The notes below the pieces were generated by a model. It searched no databases and was not told where the DNA came from. It was given only the letters and a program-made list of their open reading frames with translations. A stretch of DNA of 64,000 nucleotides from assembly GCA_002099625.1 (NCBI GenBank), contig GCA_002099625.1_4857.1. One strand, written 5' to 3'. The position numbers and the translations under genes were made by a program. The stretch's first letter is position 1. Every line of letters starts with the position of its first letter. The DNA is from Escherichia coli (GTDB lineage: Bacteria > Pseudomonadota > Gammaproteobacteria > Enterobacterales > Enterobacteriaceae). Below are positions 3,001 through 9,318 of this stretch, one piece after another.

Positions 3001-3276
3001 ATCACCACCGATCTTTCGGATAGTAAGATTCAAATCTTACCACAGTCGGGAGAGACCAACGGCACACCAGTTGTTCTGAACAGTCGTAGCTACACGTTTA
3101 CGAATGTGACAGGTGCAATCCCGGTTGTTACCACGGGCGCTCAGGGTTTATTCCCACCACCGATCGTGGCGTGGGATGGCGATGATCTTACGTTAACGAT
3201 TGCGCACGATTGGGTGAACGAGAGAGGACGTCAACAGCCTGATATTATCCAGGTCAATCTTATGTTCCGTACCTAA
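10..3276 (+). CDS. large virion structural protein (putative tail-fibre/baseplate-associated); possibly 5'-partial
   Basis: 1088-aa ORF from first in-window ATG; positions 1-9 are in-frame sense codons so the gene may start upstream of the window; no enzymatic motif recognised; immediately precedes a fibre-like gene. Confidence 0.6.
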   Translation: MSAYPGVNLVAILITGTDAMICLGSDYAYYLVIFDGTIDHAKHHRVVKVYLGDYRNGNAAGVITTTPWVADPSTNDLIVCNDRVYLLRTVLTSGDYFVSMRSIALNELNLGGSNTFVADVLTGGMLTSGDNIYLRQGQKRSDTDVLVAPVTQIYADASAKWNSARNFVHGPECNHAIAVDGLNFRVGLTPTVWFASTTGQTINFKQWVSSFVVDCSSMTVTLEGADRFPIVADLTTVRYNGGAEIGIPSRKWGEGQANNRTFATSQDKYIVSQGHAGDRDLMPYVTITTLDDGVSWYEYLSCDYNFTARSFSAVMLNQGRGSIYELGMAYPLTLGANSRLIWLSQPRSRLAIEVEFDPNTTYSGKAGYGPTNNRRVVDSITYENLSQMCHIVTPASPGTELNGWYCTGPETFPYHNVSGTFTIHADRLTLSQAEWDKMKQMIIDGAPAGAANGYASEFILAANNAGKALFSVWFIGIGTATPLTLAQVACTRTVNNVNLLDIYYFTLKPTISNGQVTFPAAILALFDFYNNLDYGLNYATLGEITGGKTRRPGQPTMVSVDGTQFGLYLPHTLTLRQIGDLGALNYAAGLTLSNGTWTRSSAPHGVGRMAPSHTPVSPAYLAHRDQVMLHNSSLDYVYCGGIAMSSSDFVARPSFGGATETVVIAGVETAEGWLVYVTEEVNLRFGSSTYKLPTWYIDLSAAFPTNHQNRTFYLHAKVENGTPKYVMDVVQHPDTETELYIGYVKTGSSRVVETNVDHAKRLGAVKQLLEHAAVENKHDVEVGRDAATGRLAPLRKEAMGPLSVDATKGYLDSQLLYTVSDAQRRGKAMVSKRFEGLKTLPAFTQANKSGAFWKHPTTIATVTADENSEATSLGMEWVGIPTPAFAPTSTNLMVVVQSKFVVPGTLGVETTFNVHVAPWEAVDGFFYNVEAEGTDVNIDENPEVLLPSPHTVHHKQHSLPAGVPCTFTFVAAVSSSALETANQHICSWLFTDAGGLPITTDLSDSKIQILPQSGETNGTPVVLNSRSYTFTNVTGAIPVVTTGAQGLFPPPIVAWDGDDLTLTIAHDWVNERGRQQPDIIQVNLMFRT

Positions 3277-3323
3277 CAGATAGCGCTATGGGGCAAGGAA
3301 GCCCCAATCAAAGGAGTTTGGCA

Positions 3324-4526
3324 ATGGCCGAAATCATTTATCAGTACCCGCTTGACCTTACCGGGACATTAACGTCGAACGCCGTTACGCGGCGTATTAC
3401 GTTAGGTTCTGGTAAAGTTAACCGGGCTTTTGCATTTCCTGACGGAGCTTTCTACGCGGATACCTTCCGCTTGGCGGCTGCGAATAAACCAGGTGTCTAC
3501 CCGTACAAACGCGGCACAGACTACGAACTGATTTTTGCACATACTGCATATCAGAAAATGACCAAGAACCGCGAAGTGGTCATGGGTGTGGTGGTAACTA
3601 ACTCGGCCATTCCTACTGATATCGAAGTCTCTGCGCAAGTCGTTGGTGGTTTTCAGTCCGCGAACGTCGAAGGTATCCGACAAGCGATTGCGTCGTTGAA
3701 AATTGAAGACCGTGTGGTGGACTTCAAGGATCTTCGAAACGTACCTGATACGTTCCCATCCGCCCCGACGTATAAAGACCTTGGCGATATCTACGGTTTT
3801 GAGTATATCATTACCGTACTCGCTGGGATTAAAGATGCGATTAACTCCGGCTCTGCAGTACAGCTGGAAGAAATCAAAGGTATTCTGGACGGTCTGAAAA
3901 ACGACTTCCTCGATGCCTTAAATGCCCACGTCAACGCCGAAGGTAACGTACACAATCTCGACATTCATCAGGTTAATGGCCTGACGGAGACGGAGATTCG
4001 TGCTCTGATTCAAAGTGTACAGACTGCCATTGACGCCACTATCAAAGATATCGGCGACTTAAGAGCAGCAGACACGGCGTTGGGACAACGCATCGATGCA
4101 GTTGTGGCTTCGTTAGCCGCGTGGAACGACCAGCTTAATGTAGTTGCTCAAAATTACCAGAAAATGTCGTTAGCATTAGCTAACCTTAATTCTCTGGTGT
4201 TGCAATTACAGAAGAAGGTTAACGATCTTCAGTCTGCGCTGAATGAAACAAATCAGCGTGTCACGGATCTTGAGAATCAGGGCAAAGACTTCCAACAGCA
4301 AATTGATAACCTGCAAGGACAAATCAACAGTCTTAAAACTCAGGTTGTAAACAACACCAACGCAATTTCGCAGGCAAACCAGAATCTGGCGAACCATGCG
4401 GCTGCGGATAACCCACACCCGAATTACCTCCATAAACAGTATGGCGGTGTTGTGCAGGCTGCTGTTCACGTCAACAACAACCTCACCTCGCGCGACGATG
4501 TTCAAGCTGAAGCGGGTACTAAGTAA
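3324..4526 (+). CDS. coiled-coil tail-fibre-like protein
   Basis: ORF 3288-4526 trimmed to ATG 3324, preceded by AAGGAG at 3311-3316; C-terminal half has heptad-like coiled coil (LQKKVNDLQSALNETNQRVTDLENQGKDFQQQIDNLQGQINSLKTQ). Confidence 0.6.
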   Translation: MAEIIYQYPLDLTGTLTSNAVTRRITLGSGKVNRAFAFPDGAFYADTFRLAAANKPGVYPYKRGTDYELIFAHTAYQKMTKNREVVMGVVVTNSAIPTDIEVSAQVVGGFQSANVEGIRQAIASLKIEDRVVDFKDLRNVPDTFPSAPTYKDLGDIYGFEYIITVLAGIKDAINSGSAVQLEEIKGILDGLKNDFLDALNAHVNAEGNVHNLDIHQVNGLTETEIRALIQSVQTAIDATIKDIGDLRAADTALGQRIDAVVASLAAWNDQLNVVAQNYQKMSLALANLNSLVLQLQKKVNDLQSALNETNQRVTDLENQGKDFQQQIDNLQGQINSLKTQVVNNTNAISQANQNLANHAAADNPHPNYLHKQYGGVVQAAVHVNNNLTSRDDVQAEAGTK

Positions 4527-4533
4527 CTTGTTT

Positions 4534-4580
4534 ACGAGCCGGACTATGTTTATGGACATAGTCCGCTCGTTCTACTTTTT
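4534..4580 (+). terminator. rho-independent terminator after fibre gene
   Basis: about 14-bp imperfect inverted repeat ACGAGCCGGACTATG / CATAGTCCGCTCGT followed by TCTACTTTTT, just before the RBS of the first Cys-rich peptide gene. Confidence 0.5.
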
Positions 4581-4591
4581 AAGGAAGCGTA

Positions 4592-4984
4592 ATGGCGATA
4601 TCTATTAAAGACGTCAGAAACCGCGTCCAGATAGTCGAAGCTAACATGGCGACAGGCCCCCGTATCGACGCGCAAGTGGCCTCTAAAGCCCATAATGCGG
4701 CAGACCGATTTGGGGGTTGGACGAAAGCACAGCTAGATTGCGGCGGGACATGTTCTTGGACGTGCTCTAACGGTTGCTCGCATGGCTGTTCGAGCTGTTC
4801 AGGAAGCTGTTCTGCTTCTTGTATCGGTAGCTGTTCTTCGACGTGTGGCGGTAACTGTTCTGGTTGCTCTGGTTGTTCTGGTGGTTGCAGTAGTAGCTGT
4901 ACCGGTAACTGTTCAGGTGGTTGCGGCGGCTCTTGTTCCGCAAACTGCTCCGGGGCCTGCTCCGGCGGCTGTTCAGGTCGCTAA
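4592..4984 (+). CDS. Cys/Ser/Gly-rich repeat peptide A (putative radical-SAM substrate / precursor-like protein)
   Basis: 130 aa; AAGGAAG RBS then ATG; N-terminal about 49-aa Cys-free leader-like region, then 81-aa core with 22 Cys at period about 4 (CSxx repeats); ends CSANCSGACSGGCSGR. Confidence 0.6.
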   Translation: MAISIKDVRNRVQIVEANMATGPRIDAQVASKAHNAADRFGGWTKAQLDCGGTCSWTCSNGCSHGCSSCSGSCSASCIGSCSSTCGGNCSGCSGCSGGCSSSCTGNCSGGCGGSCSANCSGACSGGCSGR

Positions 4985-4994
4985 GGGGGATTAA

Positions 4995-5399
4995 ATGGCA
5001 ATTGGATTAAAAGAACTGAATAACCGATTAAACACGATCGATGCAAACGCTTTAAAGAACACCACGAATGTGCAAAACTACATTCGCAATAAAGCTACGA
5101 ATAACGCCGACTTGTTCGCAGGTCAAGGCCGTTCGCACTATGACTGTGGCGGCACATGCTCTTTTAGTTGCTCGAGTTGTTCTGGCGGGTGTACTGGGTC
5201 CGCTACGGGTGGTTGTGGGTCGACTTGTTCCGCAAACTGTGTATCGGGCTGTAGCAGCAGCTGTACGGGCTGTAGCTCTTCGTGCTCGGGTGGTTGTAGC
5301 GGCACGTGCACAGGCAGCTGTTCTGGGGGTTGTGGTAAATCCTGCTCCGCAAACTGCTCAGGTGCGTGCTCTGGTGGTTGTTCAGGTCCTAACTCCTAA
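4995..5399 (+). CDS. Cys/Ser/Gly-rich repeat peptide B (paralogue of A)
   Basis: 134 aa; AGGGGGA RBS then ATG; leader-like N-terminus similar to A (M-A-I-x-(I/L)-K-(D/E)-(V/L)-(R/N)-N-R); core begins HYDCGGTCSFSCS and ends CSANCSGACSGGCSG as in A. Confidence 0.6.
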   Translation: MAIGLKELNNRLNTIDANALKNTTNVQNYIRNKATNNADLFAGQGRSHYDCGGTCSFSCSSCSGGCTGSATGGCGSTCSANCVSGCSSSCTGCSSSCSGGCSGTCTGSCSGGCGKSCSANCSGACSGGCSGPNS

Positions 5400-5414
5400 C
5401 TGACGGAGGCTTAT

Positions 5415-5621
5415 GTGATCAGTCTCAAGGCTATTCGAAACCGTCTCGTTACGGCAGAAGGTTACATTACAACCGCACAGGCAAACAACTATATCGCTAA
5501 CCAGGGCACCGTGTCAACCACGAACAACCTGGCTGGTTTACCGCTTTCCCACTATAACTGTAATGGTGGGTGTAGCTGGTCCTGCAGCGGAAGCTGTAGC
5601 CGTGGAGCGGGGAATCGATAA
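5415..5621 (+). CDS. short Cys-rich peptide C (truncated-core paralogue of A/B)
   Basis: 68 aa; GGAGG at 5405-5409, GTG start (an ATG at 5413 runs straight into TGA); leader similar to A/B (MISLKAIRNRL); core only CNGGCSWSCSGSCSRGAGNR. Confidence 0.45.
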   Translation: MISLKAIRNRLVTAEGYITTAQANNYIANQGTVSTTNNLAGLPLSHYNCNGGCSWSCSGSCSRGAGNR

Positions 5622-5643
5622 CAGAAAACGTTCGGAGTATTAA

Positions 5644-6531
5644 ATGAAAAACGATTTGCATCTTGCGTATAAAACCACATTCAACCACCCGCTGCATCTA
5701 TCTTCCCCAGACTCGGTGCGTGCACACCTCGCTGACAAAGTCAGACTGATTGCACAGATTCCTGGTGAGTGGCCAAAGGTTCGTGGTCGCTTCTTGACCG
5801 ACAAGAAGAACTACACCGTAGAAAATACGTTTAAGATCCGTGATATGGTTGCAGAGGCCATCGTTATCTTTAACGGCGATGGTAACTCTCGCGGCGTGTT
5901 AGTCGACGGTAAGTATTTCTTCAGTGAAGGGATTTTGAACAACAGCGTCGATTTAGAACTGATGTTTACACCGTTTGACGAACTTGAAGCAAAACCGATG
6001 GCGCGCCGTTGGTGGAGTCCGGACTATCTGGGCTCGTTCCCTTACTACTTTGTACTGGTACCTGCCGATACGGAAACGTATTTCGACACCGAACCATACA
6101 TCGATATCGAGGGGTATAAAGAACTCGGCATCACCCGTTTAGCGGACATGATGGCGTATAGCTATAAGTTCGTGTGGGATAAAAAGCGTTCTGTCTGGTA
6201 TGCGCTGACTGACGATTTTGAAATCACCAAGCGTATTCGTAAGCCGTGGATGCAACACCTGGTTCAAACTCGATATGGGGATTACCCGGCGACAGAAGCG
6301 GATTTGAGTAAGCTGGTAAGTTTCCTCTTAACGAAGGTGGATTTAACGAAAGAAGAAGCAGAAGCTGTTTCTGAGATTCGTGGTCGTTCGGTAACGTTGG
6401 CCGATTTGAAACGTCTGAACGAAAGACACGCCGACCTGAACAAAATTTTAGCTGCCTATCACGACCCGATGTTACTGGTGCCTGGCGCTAACGTAGACGA
6501 AGATCCTTTATTCGCCATTGATTATATTTAA
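5644..6531 (+). CDS. hypothetical protein (Cys-peptide/rSAM operon member)
   Basis: 295-aa ORF with ATG start and GGAG RBS; no motif recognised; sits between peptide genes and rSAM genes. Confidence 0.55.
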   Translation: MKNDLHLAYKTTFNHPLHLSSPDSVRAHLADKVRLIAQIPGEWPKVRGRFLTDKKNYTVENTFKIRDMVAEAIVIFNGDGNSRGVLVDGKYFFSEGILNNSVDLELMFTPFDELEAKPMARRWWSPDYLGSFPYYFVLVPADTETYFDTEPYIDIEGYKELGITRLADMMAYSYKFVWDKKRSVWYALTDDFEITKRIRKPWMQHLVQTRYGDYPATEADLSKLVSFLLTKVDLTKEEAEAVSEIRGRSVTLADLKRLNERHADLNKILAAYHDPMLLVPGANVDEDPLFAIDYI

Positions 6532-6553
6532 AAATATACTGGAGCAACCTGCA

Positions 6554-7468
6554 ATGACAGATCAAGTAGAATCCAGGATCTCGTCTGAACTGTACGACAA
6601 ACCGTCAATTCTGTCGGTTGTCGCAACTTCTAAGTGTAACTTAGACTGTAGCTTCTGTGGAGGGGCTTATTACATGGATAGAGAAGATACTTCTCGTGAG
6701 TTTCAACGTGAAGAGATTCTCTCGATTTTAGAGAAGAATCCGGATATCGGTGAGATTCATTGGACGGGCGGTGAGCCGCTGTTAGCGCAGCGTAAGATTG
6801 AAGACTTCGTGAACGAGTTGAAGGAGTCTCATCCGAACCTCCGTCATCACATGTACACCAACGGTTTAAAGATGCGTAAATCACATCTGCCGTTGCTGAA
6901 ACAGTTCGACCTTATCTTTGTGTCCATTGACGGCTACAAGAAGTCGGAACGTCCGTTTATGAACTTTGTAAACGGTGGTAATCACGAAGCGCTGGAAGTG
7001 CTGTACGAGCTGGACAATTATTACACCTGGGGTGTGATGACGCGTGACCAGTTAGGCGATAAACGCTGGTACGAAGATTTCATCGAGCTGCACCGAGCAA
7101 TCTATCATTACCGTCCAGGTGGTGTGTCGTTGTTGTTTGATGCGATGATGCCGAAACCGTTATCGCCAGACCACGTCATGAACTTCATGTACGGGTATTG
7201 GAAAATACTCGACAATATCGAACGCCTTAACATGCAGAACGACTCTGAATGTGGGCTTGCGATCAGTAAAATGTTCGATACCGAGTGCAACACGTGCAGT
7301 GAAGTGCTGTGGCTTAACGCCGACGGTACGCAGGAGCAAATTCAGAACGCCCCAGAGATATTGGAAGTCGGCTGTAATCGCCTGGCGCGTTCTATCGGCG
7401 TTGATGCGTATAACTACATCAACCGTGTAATTTCTGCTAAGCGTAAACGGGCGGCGAACAATGAGTAA
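6554..7468 (+). CDS. radical SAM enzyme (putative peptide/protein-modifying maturase)
   Basis: ORF 6518-7468 trimmed to ATG 6554 (GGAG upstream; 6518 appears to be TTG); CNLDCSFC = CxxxCxxC 4Fe-4S/SAM motif; WTGGEPLL SAM-binding glycine motif; four C-terminal Cys (partial auxiliary-cluster region). Confidence 0.75.
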   Translation: MTDQVESRISSELYDKPSILSVVATSKCNLDCSFCGGAYYMDREDTSREFQREEILSILEKNPDIGEIHWTGGEPLLAQRKIEDFVNELKESHPNLRHHMYTNGLKMRKSHLPLLKQFDLIFVSIDGYKKSERPFMNFVNGGNHEALEVLYELDNYYTWGVMTRDQLGDKRWYEDFIELHRAIYHYRPGGVSLLFDAMMPKPLSPDHVMNFMYGYWKILDNIERLNMQNDSECGLAISKMFDTECNTCSEVLWLNADGTQEQIQNAPEILEVGCNRLARSIGVDAYNYINRVISAKRKRAANNE

Positions 7469-8789
7469 TAGCGAACAGCAAATCCAGTACACACCACGCA
7501 CGTATCAGGTTGTGACTAACCTGTCATGTAACCTGGACTGCGAATACTGCTACGAGCGTAAATATCCGCGTAACAACAAAGTAGCAGACGTGATTGATTT
7601 TATCCACGCTTGTTTCGAGCGTGATAAAGATATCCCGAACGTTGAAGTCATCATCGATATCATCGGTGGTGAGCCGTTCATGCAGCCTAAACTTCTTTTG
7701 GCGGCCTTTGAAACCGCAGAGAAGTTATGCGCAGAACACAATCGCCCGTATATGTTCAGTATCTCCACGAACGGTACGCTTCTGGACCGTCCGCTGAACA
7801 AAGAAATTATCGAGCGCTGGAAAGACAAACTGTCTATTGGGGTCTCCATCGATGGTTTACCTGAAGTCCATGACAAATATCGTATCTTTACCACGACGCG
7901 TGAAGGGTCGTACGAAGCTGCGGTACGCGGTTACAATTATCTGAAGAGTGTTGGCATCGCTGAACTGGGCGTAAAAGCGACGTTTACGATCGATACATTG
8001 CCGCACTATGCCGCCAGCATGAAATCGTTAATTGACATGTCCGGCGGTGGTACCATTTCTGGTAATGTAACGTACGAAGATATCCTGCCGCGCCATATGG
8101 CGTTGGATATCGCGAACCAGATGATGGACGTGATGGACTACTGGATTGAGAAGGGTCTGCACACCAACCCGCGTAACACGATTACACACATCATCCCGGA
8201 TGGCCTGAACTTTATGGCAACTTGGGACCCGGATTGGCGTGACAAACTCTTGCACGACGACTCTGTTCGTCTCGACCCAGAACGCCTGAAACCGTACTGC
8301 GGTACGTTGACGCACATGACCTGTCTCGGCTTTGATCGCAAGATTTACGGTTGTAACCGTTTCATGTCCACGGTAACTTCCCGCTCTGCTGTAGCGGAAC
8401 TGGTCGGTCGTGAGTTTGTGAGTCTGGACGGTGGTAAGCTGTTAGAAGAGATTCAAACGCAGTACACCAACTACCCAGAAACCTGTTTAGGGTGTCCGAT
8501 GAAGCACAGCTGCGGTAGCTGCGCAGCAGCATCGTACGAAAACGGTGAAGGTACACTGGAAGACCGTAAAGCGTATCACGCCGAGCGTCGTCAGTGTGGT
8601 TGGACTACTGCGAAGCTGATGGCGGCGGAATATTGGTATCAAAAAACTGGTACGACTCGCGCATCAGATTTGCACGATAAATCCATGTGCTATTGTTCAC
8701 GTTGTGTACGCCAACGTGCCGAAGCAGAAAAATTACAAAACGGAGCCCAGAATGAAGTCAATACTGATTCACAATTTTACGAAGCGTAA
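7461..8789 (+). CDS. radical SAM enzyme with SPASM-like C-terminal Cys cluster
   Basis: 442 aa; ATG overlaps the stop of the upstream rSAM gene by 8 nt (translational coupling); CNLDCEYC motif; IGGEPF motif; C-terminal PYCG..MTCLG..GCNRF..ETCLGCPMKHSCGSC seven-Cys pattern typical of SPASM auxiliary clusters. Confidence 0.8.
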   Translation: MSNSEQQIQYTPRTYQVVTNLSCNLDCEYCYERKYPRNNKVADVIDFIHACFERDKDIPNVEVIIDIIGGEPFMQPKLLLAAFETAEKLCAEHNRPYMFSISTNGTLLDRPLNKEIIERWKDKLSIGVSIDGLPEVHDKYRIFTTTREGSYEAAVRGYNYLKSVGIAELGVKATFTIDTLPHYAASMKSLIDMSGGGTISGNVTYEDILPRHMALDIANQMMDVMDYWIEKGLHTNPRNTITHIIPDGLNFMATWDPDWRDKLLHDDSVRLDPERLKPYCGTLTHMTCLGFDRKIYGCNRFMSTVTSRSAVAELVGREFVSLDGGKLLEEIQTQYTNYPETCLGCPMKHSCGSCAAASYENGEGTLEDRKAYHAERRQCGWTTAKLMAAEYWYQKTGTTRASDLHDKSMCYCSRCVRQRAEAEKLQNGAQNEVNTDSQFYEA

Positions 8790-9318
8790 ACTGCACTTGG
8801 TCGATCGCTTCCTGCGCAAAAGCAAGCTGTACAATGTGCACGCAATTGTGGCAGGGGAAGACTTCACTGATGAAATCCAAAGCCTGTTGATTAAATACGG
8901 GCTGAATGTGATGATCCCGGTCTACTGCGTTGAGAAAGGACACGAGTCTGTCGCGGAAATCGAAAAGCGCAACCCTGGCTTTGAGAAGCGACTGCTTGCA
9001 TACCCACGCCACAAAATCGAACTGCTACGTCACTCTATTGATGAAGCCAGTCCTGAAAGTTTAGTGGCATTGGGCTTGTCATTCCCGCGGATGCGTATTC
9101 GTAACTTACGCTCCAATAACCCGGTTGACGCTTATTACACAGAACGTCAAATCTTCGAAGAACACCTGCTCCCGCAGTTGGAAGAAGAAGAGCAACACAA
9201 CATTTCTCTGTTGTGGGCCGGTAACCTCGATCAGGACTTCCAGATGCTGGACTTCGGTTTGTTGTTAGAACTTGGCCTGATTGAGGAGGACGAATGTCTG
9301 TTACTGACAAAAGCTTAA
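8752..9318 (+). CDS. hypothetical protein (operon member)
   Basis: ORF 8704-9318 (apparently GTG start) trimmed to ATG 8752 with GGAG at 8742-8745; overlaps end of rSAM gene; no motif recognised. Confidence 0.45.
   Translation: MKSILIHNFTKRKLHLVDRFLRKSKLYNVHAIVAGEDFTDEIQSLLIKYGLNVMIPVYCVEKGHESVAEIEKRNPGFEKRLLAYPRHKIELLRHSIDEASPESLVALGLSFPRMRIRNLRSNNPVDAYYTERQIFEEHLLPQLEEEEQHNISLLWAGNLDQDFQMLDFGLLLELGLIEEDECLLLTKA

What the first reader, a model, noticed from the sequence alone, without database searches (positions are those of the whole stretch)
5415..5621. Third peptide paralogue has a full leader but a truncated core and a GTG start
Peptide C keeps the leader-like region and the junction motif (HYNCNGGCSWSCS) but its core stops after about 20 residues (5 Cys) and ends RGAGNR. 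It may be a decaying paralogue, a short distinct product, or a leader-only regulator/decoy. The ATG two codons upstream runs directly into TGA, so expression depends on the GTG.
Basis: seen in the sequence. Interest (0 to 1): 0.45.

Follow-up and report, generated by a model that had tools for sequence, protein, structure and literature searches.

The report
Conserved short third Cys-repeat phage protein
The short third copy is not a broken gene: it is a conserved, strongly selected 68-residue protein in the tail-fibre region of SPN3US-like giant phages, one of three cysteine-repeat proteins encoded beside two radical-SAM enzymes, and probably the repeat-poor partner of its two long siblings.

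Summary
The ORF at 5415-5621 (GTG start, GGAGG ribosome-binding site, 68 aa) is real and is a paralogue of the two upstream Cys-rich proteins A and B. Two details need correcting. It has 4 Cys, not 5. The ATG lies 2 nt upstream, out of frame and overlapping the GTG, not two codons upstream.

The window is an SPN3US-like jumbo phage. The third copy is not decaying:
- It is 60-69 aa in every one of about 25 distinct loci from at least five named genera and two much more distant phage lineages.
- dN/dS is about 0.03-0.07, as low as for A and B, and the short tail is more constrained than the N-terminal part.
- No orthologue has a full-length third copy.

The operon (A, B, C, an unknown-fold protein, two radical-SAM enzymes) sits in the tail/baseplate-fibre module. 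In other phages the same enzyme set follows a single tail-fibre-like protein that ends in the same junction motif and CXXX array. The "leader" therefore looks more like a fibre stalk or assembly module than a RiPP leader.

Best reading (inferred): C is the array-less partner chain or adaptor of the cross-linked A/B proteins. In two lineages its C-terminus carries extra domains. The system is closest to the uncharacterised CXXX-repeat rSAM target family, but scores below its cut-offs.

The parts
5406..5410 (+). Shine-Dalgarno GGAGG for peptide C, 4 nt before the GTG
   Evidence: Sequence. An equivalent GGAGG/GGGGG/GAGGA element lies 4-9 nt upstream of the start in all 25 C-type genes.
5415..5621 (+). 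Peptide/protein C: 68 aa, GTG start, TAA stop; third paralogue of the phrog_6085 family
   Evidence: phrog_6085 E 3e-24; conserved at 60-69 aa in ~25 loci; dN/dS 0.03-0.07.
5415..5558 (+). N-terminal module of C (aa 1-48). It has the shared motif M(A)[IV]SLKx[IVL]xxR[LVIM]xx[VIL]E, the C-type signature EGYITTAQANNYIA, and NNLAGLPLSHY (the LxGxxxxxY element that precedes the junction in all family members).
   Evidence: Alignments. AF2 predicts a helix at residues 3-29 with low confidence. The modules are orthologous by type across lineages.
5559..5618 (+). Junction motif and short tail of C (aa 49-68): CNGGCSWSCSGSCSRGAGNR, four CXXX units then GAGNR
   Evidence: Sequence. In the tail, 0 nonsynonymous vs 6-13 synonymous changes in several pairs. 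C-x(1-3)-CS[WFY] is the only Cys element kept in all C-type proteins.
4592..4984 (+). Protein A: 130 aa, 21 Cys, N-terminal module plus long CXXX array
   Evidence: phrog_6085 E 5.3e-40; TIGR04114 18.4 bits, cut-off 20.
4995..5399 (+). Protein B: 134 aa, 20 Cys, N-terminal module plus long CXXX array
   Evidence: phrog_6085 E 3e-41; TIGR04114 17.1 bits.
5644..6531 (+). 295-aa partner protein (SPN3US gp165, phrog_8030), unknown fold, always directly after C
6554..7468 (+). Radical SAM enzyme 1 (304 aa; SPN3US gp164)
   Evidence: PF04055 E 9.8e-16. It has only generic rSAM-core matches in NCBIfam.
7461..8789 (+). Radical SAM/SPASM enzyme 2 (442 aa; SPN3US gp163)
   Evidence: PF04055. Best NCBIfam matches: TIGR04115 CXXX-repeat maturase 3e-36 and PapB 1.1e-32, both below cut-off. 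Nearest solved structure is CteB 5wgg, with query 22-179 aligned to chain 106-263.
8752..9318 (+). 188-aa conserved protein (SPN3US gp162, phrog_7988), co-located in the jumbo-phage loci
   Evidence: E 7e-87. Equivalent 172-177 aa genes follow rSAM-2 in L034 and L035.
9294..9965 (+). DUF4376 protein, last gene of the operon
   Evidence: PF14301 E 2.4e-9. A DUF4376 gene also lies two genes downstream of the rSAM pair in L040.
9983..10006 (.). Bidirectional terminator-like hairpin closing the operon
   Evidence: 10-bp stem, 7 GC pairs, T-runs on both strands.
3288..4526 (+). Upstream coiled-coil virion structural protein (SPN3US gp167). The gene before it is gp168, a tail/baseplate-periphery protein.
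   Evidence: phrog_2163 'virion structural protein' E 5.1e-108 and coiled-coil Pfam hits. gp168 is described as a tail protein similar to phiKZ gp131 in PMC5105663.

Best explanation
Peptide C is a bona fide, translated, anciently conserved third member of a three-paralogue set (A, B, C). The set is encoded in the tail/baseplate-fibre module of SPN3US-like jumbo phages, together with an unknown-fold partner (gp165) and two radical SAM enzymes.

A and B carry long CXXX arrays. These are most likely cross-linked by the SPASM enzyme (thioether-type chemistry; inferred from family resemblance only).

C keeps the two elements shared by all three: the N-terminal amphipathic helix (M-A-I-S-L-K-x-I-x-x-R-L-x-x-V-E, heptad-like spacing) and the LxGxxxxxY-CxxxCSW junction. 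It ends after four CXXX units.

My preferred mechanism (inferred) is that C co-assembles with A and B through the shared N-terminal helix and junction. It would be the third, array-less strand of a small fibre-like complex, or its adaptor or cap. Its C-terminus would be free, and in other lineages that end carries additional globular domains. The GTG start with a strong GGAGG is its normal, maintained initiation signal.
For: Shown:
(1) The third gene is short in every locus: 13 isolates of five genera, CR5, nine further IMG/VR contigs, and two distant lineages (L034 60 aa, L035 69 aa).
(2) dN/dS is 0.03-0.07, equal to A and B. In the tail, 0-1 nonsynonymous vs 6-13 synonymous changes.
(3) An exhaustive profile search of 1.84 billion representatives finds only 25 relatives. 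Most are 60-76 aa C-type proteins.
(4) The A, B and C N-terminal modules are each most similar to the same type in other lineages. The triplication is therefore old and each type has been retained. Module lengths are tightly kept (C 48-49 aa, B 50, A 46-53).
(5) The first 16 residues are a common motif in all three types, with hydrophobic residues in 100% of sequences at positions 3, 5, 8, 12 and 15. AF2 predicts a helix at 3-29.
(6) The gene order A-B-C-gp165 is kept even where the rSAM genes have moved (L034) or an extra rSAM gene is inserted (L020).
(7) The context is the tail module: gp168 is a tail/baseplate protein (PMC5105663); Peptidase_S74 or GpJ-like neighbours occur in L034, L033 and L037.
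(8) In L033, L037 and L038 the junction motif plus CXXX array, and in L039 a CXXX array without the CS[WFY] junction, forms the C-terminal end of a single tail-fibre-like protein, followed by a gp165-like gene (phrog_8030 hits in L033, L037 and L039; none for the L038 candidate) and rSAM genes. Supporting domain matches: phrog_6085 E 4e-12 to 3e-14; PF12571 above cut-off in L039; a weak phage-tail-repeat match.
(9) In L041 (210 aa) and L042/L043 (147 aa) the C-type gene carries an extra non-Cys C-terminal domain. In L042/L043 the ORF is kept despite 5 nt differences between two samples. This is what one expects of a structural chain with an exposed distal end.
Against: - There is no direct evidence that A, B and C associate, or that any of them is in the virion. 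SPN3US proteomics could not have seen them, because A and C are unannotated and B is annotated in the wrong frame.
- Phage fibres are normally homotrimers (general knowledge).
- Half of the lineages use GTG for C while A and B always use ATG, which may mean unequal expression.
- No modification chemistry was tested. The rSAM-2 assignment is below the family cut-offs.
- The fibre-fused homologues lack the MAISLK helix. That element is therefore not needed by the enzymes, but this does not prove an assembly role.
Confidence: 0.45

Rival explanations
1. C is an independent short substrate. It is processed by the same rSAM machinery as A and B and gives its own product: either a small cross-linked peptide or a short homo-oligomeric mini-fibre. 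It does not co-assemble with A and B.
For: C keeps the junction CxxxCSW and, in this window, four CXXX units. TIGR04114 matches weakly at 13.7 bits over residues 49-61. The tail is under strong constraint. Bacterial CXXX-repeat targets next to remoter rSAMs include several tandem short peptides of 52-88 aa.
Against: In Wellington-, Derbicus-, L034- and L035-type phages the tail keeps only the two junction Cys, which leaves little to cross-link. No protease or exporter was recognised in the operon. A strict 2-long-plus-1-short pattern with type-wise orthology is not required by this model. Appended globular domains do not fit a small peptide product.
Confidence: 0.25
2. C is a non-structural 'leader-only' factor. 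It acts as a decoy, activator or assembly chaperone that binds gp165 or the rSAM enzymes through the shared N-terminal helix and junction, tunes or templates the maturation of A and B, and is not part of the final product.
For: C retains exactly the parts shared with A and B and lacks the array. It is always encoded between the substrates and gp165. GTG starts in half the lineages could reflect sub-stoichiometric need. By analogy, phage tail-fibre assembly proteins are encoded just downstream of fibre genes (general knowledge).
Against: Residues after the junction (RGAGNR; GGAKAVTWPS) are more constrained than the N-terminal part. Single-gene fibre systems with the same enzymes have no C-type gene, so the enzymes do not need it. 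No RRE-like recognition domain was found in rSAM-2 or gp165. The extra C-terminal domains in L041 and L042 are hard to fit to a decoy.
Confidence: 0.17
3. C is a decaying or recently truncated paralogue, or a chance ORF that is not expressed.
For: It is short, has a non-ATG start, and is unannotated in the SPN3US reference records.
Against: The same length is seen in ~25 loci across very divergent phages. No full-length third copy exists anywhere. dN/dS is 0.03-0.07. A strong SD is present in every locus. PHROG E is 3e-24.
Confidence: 0.02

Closest known systems
CXXX-repeat radical SAM target system (NCBIfam TIGR04114 target repeat / TIGR04115 maturase; Pfam PF27846 tSAM_targ_Cxxx_rpt)
   Same: Tandem C-x-x-x repeats are encoded next to a radical SAM/SPASM enzyme. 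TIGR04115 is the best-scoring family for rSAM-2 (E 3e-36). TIGR04114 is the only NCBIfam hit for A and B, and a weak one for C. PF27846 is recorded on the homologous proteins in L036 (weak) and L038.
   Different: All scores are below the curated cut-offs (125.6 vs 350 bits; 18.4, 17.1 and 13.7 vs 20 bits). The phage set has a specific LxGxxxxxY-CxxxCS[WFY] junction, a second rSAM, a phrog_8030 partner, a tail-module location and a fixed long-long-short triplet. As far as I know and could find, that family has no biochemical characterisation.
PapA/PapB (freyrasin) ranthipeptide system
   Same: PapB is the second-best match for rSAM-2 and the alignment spans almost the whole profile (22-357 vs 12-319/330, E 1.1e-32). 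The substrate has a repeated C-x3 register.
   Different: 113.6 bits vs a cut-off of 340. PapB links Cys to Asp in CX3D motifs (PMC10739248 abstract). C has no Asp or Glu after residue 15, and the arrays of A and B have none. The phage proteins sit in a virion tail module, not a natural-product cluster.
SCIFF/CteA-CteB sactipeptide-type thioether maturase (PDB 5wgg)
   Same: It is the nearest solved structure to rSAM-2 by sequence (E 3.1e-10), and it is an rSAM/SPASM enzyme acting on a Cys-rich substrate.
   Different: The alignment starts at CteB residue 106. rSAM-2 has only about 22 residues before its CxxxCxxC motif, so it lacks the N-terminal peptide-recognition domain that CteB has (the latter from my knowledge of the CteB structure paper).
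QhpC/QhpD (quinohemoprotein amine dehydrogenase small subunit cross-linked by an rSAM/SPASM enzyme)
   Same: It is a precedent for an rSAM/SPASM enzyme installing intraprotein thioether cross-links in a structural subunit of a protein complex rather than in a secreted peptide (my knowledge). TIGR03906 is among the rSAM-2 hits (E 3.8e-15).
   Different: The sequence relation is weak (55.5 vs 453 bits). There is no quinone cofactor context, and the Cys acceptors there are Asp/Glu.
Phage tail fibres and tail-fibre assembly proteins
   Same: The genes sit in the tail/baseplate-fibre module. In L033, L037 and L038 the homologous junction plus array, and in L039 a CXXX array without the CS[WFY] junction, is the C-terminal end of a tail-fibre-like protein (PF12571 above cut-off in L039; phage-tail-repeat and tail-fibre PHROG matches). 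Like Tfa-type proteins, C is a small protein encoded just downstream of the long chains.
   Different: C itself matches no tail-fibre or Tfa family. No virion evidence exists. A heteromeric fibre would be unusual.

Membership tests
phrog_6085 (phage Cys-rich proteins of unknown function) | Significant match to the family profile | tested here: met
   C: E 3e-24, residues 1-67 on profile positions 2-67 of 129. A: 5.3e-40. B: 3e-41.
CXXX-repeat rSAM target (TIGR04114 / PF27846) | Repeat score at or above the curated cut-off (20 bits) | tested here: not met
   C 13.7 bits, E 0.069. A 18.4 and B 17.1 bits. By eye C has four consecutive CXXX units (aa 49-64).
CXXX-repeat rSAM target (TIGR04114 / PF27846) | Encoded next to a TIGR04115-type rSAM/SPASM maturase that passes its cut-off (350 bits) | tested here: not met
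   rSAM-2 is in the same operon, 1.8 kb downstream. TIGR04115 is its best family but scores 125.6 bits. Adjacency is met; family score is not.
RiPP precursor peptide (leader plus core) | A RiPP recognition element (PqqD-like) in the maturase or a partner protein | tested here: not met
RiPP precursor peptide (leader plus core) | Leader peptidase and/or exporter in the cluster; leader removal | tested here: inconclusive
   No peptidase or transporter family was found among the operon genes. Three of those genes have unknown function. Cleavage cannot be tested in silico.
RiPP precursor peptide (leader plus core) | Post-translational modification of the core | not testable with these tools
   This needs mass spectrometry of C co-expressed with the enzymes.
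Ranthipeptide (PapA/PapB type) | CX3D/E acceptor motifs and a maturase above the PapB cut-off (340 bits) | tested here: not met
   There is no Asp or Glu in C after residue 15, and none in the arrays of A and B. rSAM-2 scores 113.6 bits.
Phage tail fibre / fibre-associated structural protein | Recognisable fibre domain or demonstrated virion location | tested here: inconclusive
   C itself has no fibre-family hit. Homologous junction-plus-array segments (in L039 a CXXX array without the CS[WFY] junction) end tail-fibre-like proteins in L033, L037, L038 and L039. The neighbour gp168 is a tail protein. Virion presence is untested, because A and C are absent from the SPN3US annotation used for proteomics.
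Pseudogene / decaying paralogue | Lesion relative to intact orthologues and relaxed selection | tested here: not met
   No full-length orthologue exists in ~25 loci or among 25 database-wide relatives. dN/dS is 0.03-0.07.

The most novel reading that the evidence does not exclude
A, B and C form a heteromeric, radical-SAM cross-linked mini-fibre on the tail or baseplate of SPN3US-like phages. A and B contribute thioether-laddered CXXX rods. C is the array-less third strand, whose free C-terminus is the attachment point for lineage-specific distal (possibly receptor-binding) domains. This would be the first virion structural protein matured by RiPP-type radical SAM chemistry, with the fibre-fused single-gene versions in other phages as its ancestral form.
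Probability: 0.25. Interest if true: 0.8.

Novelty: new variant of a known kind. Interest (0 to 1): 0.55.

Why it matters
CXXX-repeat targets of radical SAM/SPASM enzymes are known only from comparative genomics. Here the same kind of enzyme-target pair is found as a conserved part of a phage tail-fibre module, either as the tip of real fibre proteins or as a fixed long-long-short triplet of small proteins.

If the arrays are cross-linked, this would extend RiPP-type radical chemistry to virion structural proteins. It would also give SPN3US, a genetic model with amber mutants, three unannotated genes to test. The short third chain is the most tractable handle. It is small, has at most four candidate sites, is under strong selection, and in some phages carries extra domains.

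The work also corrects reference annotations. In SPN3US, A and C are missing, B is in the wrong frame, and rSAM-1 is truncated. These errors have kept the proteins out of published proteomic searches.

Tried and rejected
- Literature: searches for SPN3US plus radical SAM, jumbo phage plus cysteine-rich, tail fibre plus radical SAM plus thioether, SPASM plus bacteriophage plus RiPP, and CXXX/TIGR04114/5 found nothing about this locus. The SPN3US proteomics papers mention only gp168 from this region. The Haft & Basu 2011 paper is not held.
- Recognition-element hypothesis: gp165 modelled well, but it has no known fold and no PqqD-like match. afdb50 was unavailable.
- AF2 of C alone: low confidence, a helix at 3-29 only, not decisive.
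- Stop-codon read-through fusing B to C: they are in frame and 5 codons apart in the window. This is not conserved (gaps of 43-47 nt in Erskinevirus; an in-frame TGA in Huxley). Rejected.
- Hidden or frameshifted core after C: only 22 nt lie before the next gene. Rejected. The longer database entries (P0001, P0006, P0008, P0012) run on from a poly-G tract into non-Cys sequence and look like frameshifted calls.
- Idea that rSAM-1 acts specifically on the CSW junction shared by A, B and C: weakened, because L039 and L040 keep both rSAMs although their targets lack that junction.
- Structured RNA: no Rfam match in 4000-7000.
- Minus-strand ORFs and a sigma-70-like site inside C: no support; there are fewer promoter-like sites than in shuffles.
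- Homologues of the extra C-terminal domains of L041 and L042: none in Pfam, PHROGs or phage records. The best is a tail-fibre PHROG at E 0.13.
- Other proteins in the window with the MAISLK module: none.

Full report
**Where this is.** The window is an SPN3US-like jumbo phage (Seoulvirus). Positions 4400-9000 match Salmonella phage SPN3US and about 25 relatives at 98.3-98.8% identity.

The finding lies in a tightly packed + strand operon, with intergenic gaps of 10-22 nt or overlaps:
- protein A, 4592-4984 (130 aa, 21 Cys)
- protein B, 4995-5399 (134 aa, 20 Cys)
- the finding, C, 5415-5621
- a 295-aa protein, 5644-6531 (SPN3US gp165)
- radical SAM enzyme 1, 6554-7468
- radical SAM enzyme 2, 7461-8789
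- a 188-aa protein, 8752-9318
- a DUF4376 protein, 9294-9965
- a bidirectional terminator-like hairpin, 9983-10006

Upstream are a coiled-coil virion structural protein (gp167) and gp168. PMC5105663 describes gp168 as a tail protein similar to phiKZ gp131 at the baseplate periphery.

**The observation.** It holds, with two corrections. The ORF 5415-5621 starts with GTG and encodes 68 aa ending ...SHYNCNGGCSWSCSGSCSRGAGNR.
- It has four Cys (aa 49, 53, 57, 61), not five.
- The ATG is at 5413-5415. It overlaps the GTG by one base, is out of frame and runs into TGA at 5416-5418. It is 2 nt upstream, not two codons.

No other canonical start exists between the stop of B and the GTG, and the protein has no Met, so translation does depend on this GTG. 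A GGAGG lies 4 nt upstream.

Homology to A and B is significant. In-window phmmer of the N-terminal modules of A and B against the third ORF gives E 1.9e-6 and 3.9e-10. All three fall in PHROG phrog_6085, with C at E 3e-24 covering the first half of the profile.

**Is it a decaying copy?** No. I took the orthologous locus from 12 isolates of Seoulvirus, Machinavirus, Erskinevirus, Wellingtonvirus and Derbicusvirus, from Cronobacter phage CR5, and from 17 IMG/VR contigs. In every one the third gene is 68-69 aa, and it aligns without internal gaps across the 13 sequences compared.

Pairwise dN/dS is 0.03-0.07, the same as for A and B. The short tail is more constrained than the N-terminal part: Stratton vs pEa_SNUABM_4 shows 0 nonsynonymous and 13 synonymous changes; the window vs STsAS shows 0 and 6.

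Every C-type gene has a GGAGG/GGGGG-type ribosome-binding site 4-9 nt upstream. Twelve of 25 start with GTG and 13 with ATG, whereas A and B always use ATG. The GTG is therefore a maintained state. STsAS and pEa_SNUABM_29 differ only by G/A at the first base of the same codon.

A word-indexed search of 5.8 billion proteins found 14 relatives. An exhaustive profile search of 1.84 billion cluster representatives found 25. Most are 60-76 aa C-type proteins, and none is a third copy with a full array.

**Deeper conservation.** Through distant homologues of rSAM-2 I reached two much more divergent phage lineages:
- L034 (rSAM-2 47% identical) has A' (129 aa), B', a 60-aa C' (...LSYYRCTGCSWASGKK) and the gp165-like gene in the same order, although rSAM-2 has moved upstream.
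- L035/L036 (53% identical) has A'', B'' and a 69-aa C'' (...YYDCGGSCSWTASGR), then gp165-like, rSAM-1 and rSAM-2.

Two tail types exist:
- 4-5 Cys, ending GAGNR or similar (this window, Machinavirus, Erskinevirus and others);
- only the two junction Cys (Wellington, Derbicusvirus, L034, L035 and several metagenomic clusters).

The invariant part of C is therefore the ~48-aa N-terminal module plus Y-x-C-x(1-3)-C-S-W. The N-terminal modules of A, B and C are each most similar to the same type in other lineages. The triplication is thus old and all three types have been kept. Module lengths are tightly conserved.

**What the system is.** rSAM-2 is a SPASM-type enzyme. Its best NCBIfam matches are the CXXX-repeat peptide maturase TIGR04115 (E 3e-36) and the ranthipeptide maturase PapB (E 1.1e-32, nearly full length). 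Both are far below the curated cut-offs. Its nearest solved relative is the SCIFF maturase CteB. The alignment begins at CteB residue 106, and rSAM-2 has only about 22 residues before its cluster motif, so it has no room for an N-terminal recognition domain.

**The decisive context comes from remoter loci.** In a Deferribacter prophage (L033) and in three other phage contigs (L037, L038, L039), a single tail-fibre-like protein of 258-568 aa ends in a CXXX array:
- ...ADQLGGQAGSYYRCSDCSWTCSSSC... (L033)
- ...ASKLAGQTSGYYRCSGCSWTC... (L037)
- ...AVTLGGQPPDFYTCGGSCSWSC... (L038)

L039 has a CXXX array but lacks the CS[WFY] junction. Each array is followed by a partner gene and two or three rSAM genes. 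The partner matches phrog_8030 (gp165-like) in L033, L037 and L039; the L038 candidate gives no hit.

These proteins match phrog_6085 from profile position 17-35 onwards (E 4e-12 to 3e-14). They carry tail-fibre features: the PF12571 tail-collar N-terminus above cut-off in L039, a weak phage-tail-repeat match, HxH..Y repeats, and GpJ-like or T4 gp13-like neighbours.

The whole system is best described as a tail-fibre-associated CXXX domain serviced by radical SAM enzymes, not as a natural-product cluster. Remoter bacterial relatives of the enzyme sit next to CXXX targets of all sizes, from 52-aa peptides to 660-aa proteins. The known CXXX-repeat family thus spans peptides and proteins. The phage branch differs by its junction motif, second rSAM and gp165-like partner.

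**What C most likely does.**
- Shown: C is a translated-looking, selected, ancient gene. It shares with A and B an N-terminal 16-residue motif with hydrophobic residues at positions 3, 5, 8, 12 and 15 in every sequence. That region is predicted helical. C also shares the junction motif. Its C-terminus tolerates additions: in L041 the C-type gene is 210 aa and in L042/L043 147 aa, each with an unrelated non-Cys domain after ...GAGGG. In the latter case the ORF is preserved across two samples that differ at 5 nt.
- Inferred: the arrays of A and B are cross-linked by rSAM-2. C co-assembles with them through the shared helix and junction, as an array-less third strand, adaptor or cap with an exposed distal end. 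I give this 0.45.

Rivals:
- C as an independent minimal substrate or product (0.25)
- C as a non-structural decoy, activator or chaperone (0.17)
- decay or non-expression (0.02)

Points against my preferred model are that phage fibres are usually homotrimers, that GTG starts may mean unequal dosage, and that there is no protein-level evidence at all. The SPN3US records do not annotate A or C and annotate a wrong-frame ORF (gp166) over B. Published virion proteomes therefore could not have detected them.

**Novelty and score.** Nothing in the searchable literature describes this locus. The kind of system, CXXX-repeat targets of rSAM/SPASM enzymes, is known from curated families, so I rate this a new variant of a known kind. 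It is tail-module associated, with a fixed long-long-short triplet whose short member is the finding. Interest 0.55. The specific finding is a solid, conserved small gene rather than a curiosity of decay. It also opens a testable question: whether RiPP-type radical chemistry matures virion proteins.

Noticed in passing
window 4592-5621; L001 (SPN3US NC_027402) 3127-4245: The SPN3US GenBank and RefSeq records annotate neither protein A nor C. Their only CDS here (gp166, L001 3669-4004) is a wrong-frame ORF lying over protein B. Escherichia phage EC001 annotates all three correctly.
   Followed up: yes
window 6554-7468 (rSAM-1); L001 5274-6068: SPN3US gp164 is annotated from an internal ATG (about window 6673). 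This removes the N-terminal CNLDCSFC radical-SAM cluster motif. EC001 and several Erwinia phage records use the longer start.
   Followed up: partly
L004 3280-4017, L010 3175-3996, L003 3293-4012: Several Erwinia phage records annotate minus-strand 'hypothetical proteins' across the Cys-rich genes (Huxley gp176/177, Phobos gp167/168, pEa_SNUABM_29 00267/268). The GC-rich repeat keeps other frames open, so these are likely artefacts.
   Followed up: partly
L020 3393-4304 and L021 3392-4303: Two IMG/VR jumbo-phage contigs carry an extra rSAM-1 paralogue (303 aa) inserted between A and B, in addition to the usual rSAM-1 and rSAM-2 downstream.
   Followed up: partly
L041 5001-5633; L042/L043 5001-5444: C-type genes with an additional non-Cys C-terminal domain (142 and about 80 aa). 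The domains are unrelated to each other and have no homologue in Pfam, PHROGs or phage records.
   Followed up: partly
L017/L018 4852-5000, L019 4933-5000: These lineages have a 69-150 nt non-coding spacer between C and the gp165-like gene, where the window has 22 nt. It may be a remnant of a lost C-terminal extension or insertion. No similarity to the L041 extension was found.
   Followed up: partly
window 5397-5417: The stop of B and the start of C are in the same frame, five codons apart (TAA CTG ACG GAG GCT TAT GTG). The in-frame arrangement is not conserved in Erskinevirus or Machinavirus, so read-through is unlikely.
   Followed up: yes
window about 4537-4566 and 9983-10006: A hairpin followed by a T-rich run lies just after gp167 and before protein A. 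A strong bidirectional terminator-like hairpin follows the DUF4376 gene and brackets the operon.
   Followed up: no
window 5517..5488, minus strand: A sigma-70-like site (TTGACA-18-TATAGT, 11 of 12) lies inside gene C on the opposite strand. The region as a whole has fewer such sites than shuffled controls, so it is probably chance.
   Followed up: no
Salmonella phage SPFM5-SPFM10 records (hits H27-H30, H126-H130): These records match the locus only in up to 40 short pieces and give fragmented protein matches. This suggests indel-rich assemblies rather than real divergence.
   Followed up: no
L033 3490-4398 (Deferribacter abyssi contig), L037 2682-3458: Prophage-like tail-fibre proteins with repeated H-x-H-D-D-R-Y-[YF]-T-E motifs, ending in a CXXX array. 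GpJ-like tail proteins lie upstream; a gp165-like gene and two or three rSAM genes lie downstream.
   Followed up: partly
L044-L047 (Margulisiibacteriota / Termititenax genomes): Very large CXXX-repeat proteins (495-667 aa, 79-122 Cys) lie next to remoter rSAM/SPASM genes. Bacillota (Firmicutes) loci (L048, L050, L054, L055, L109) instead have 52-88 aa peptides, in L054 two in tandem.
   Followed up: no
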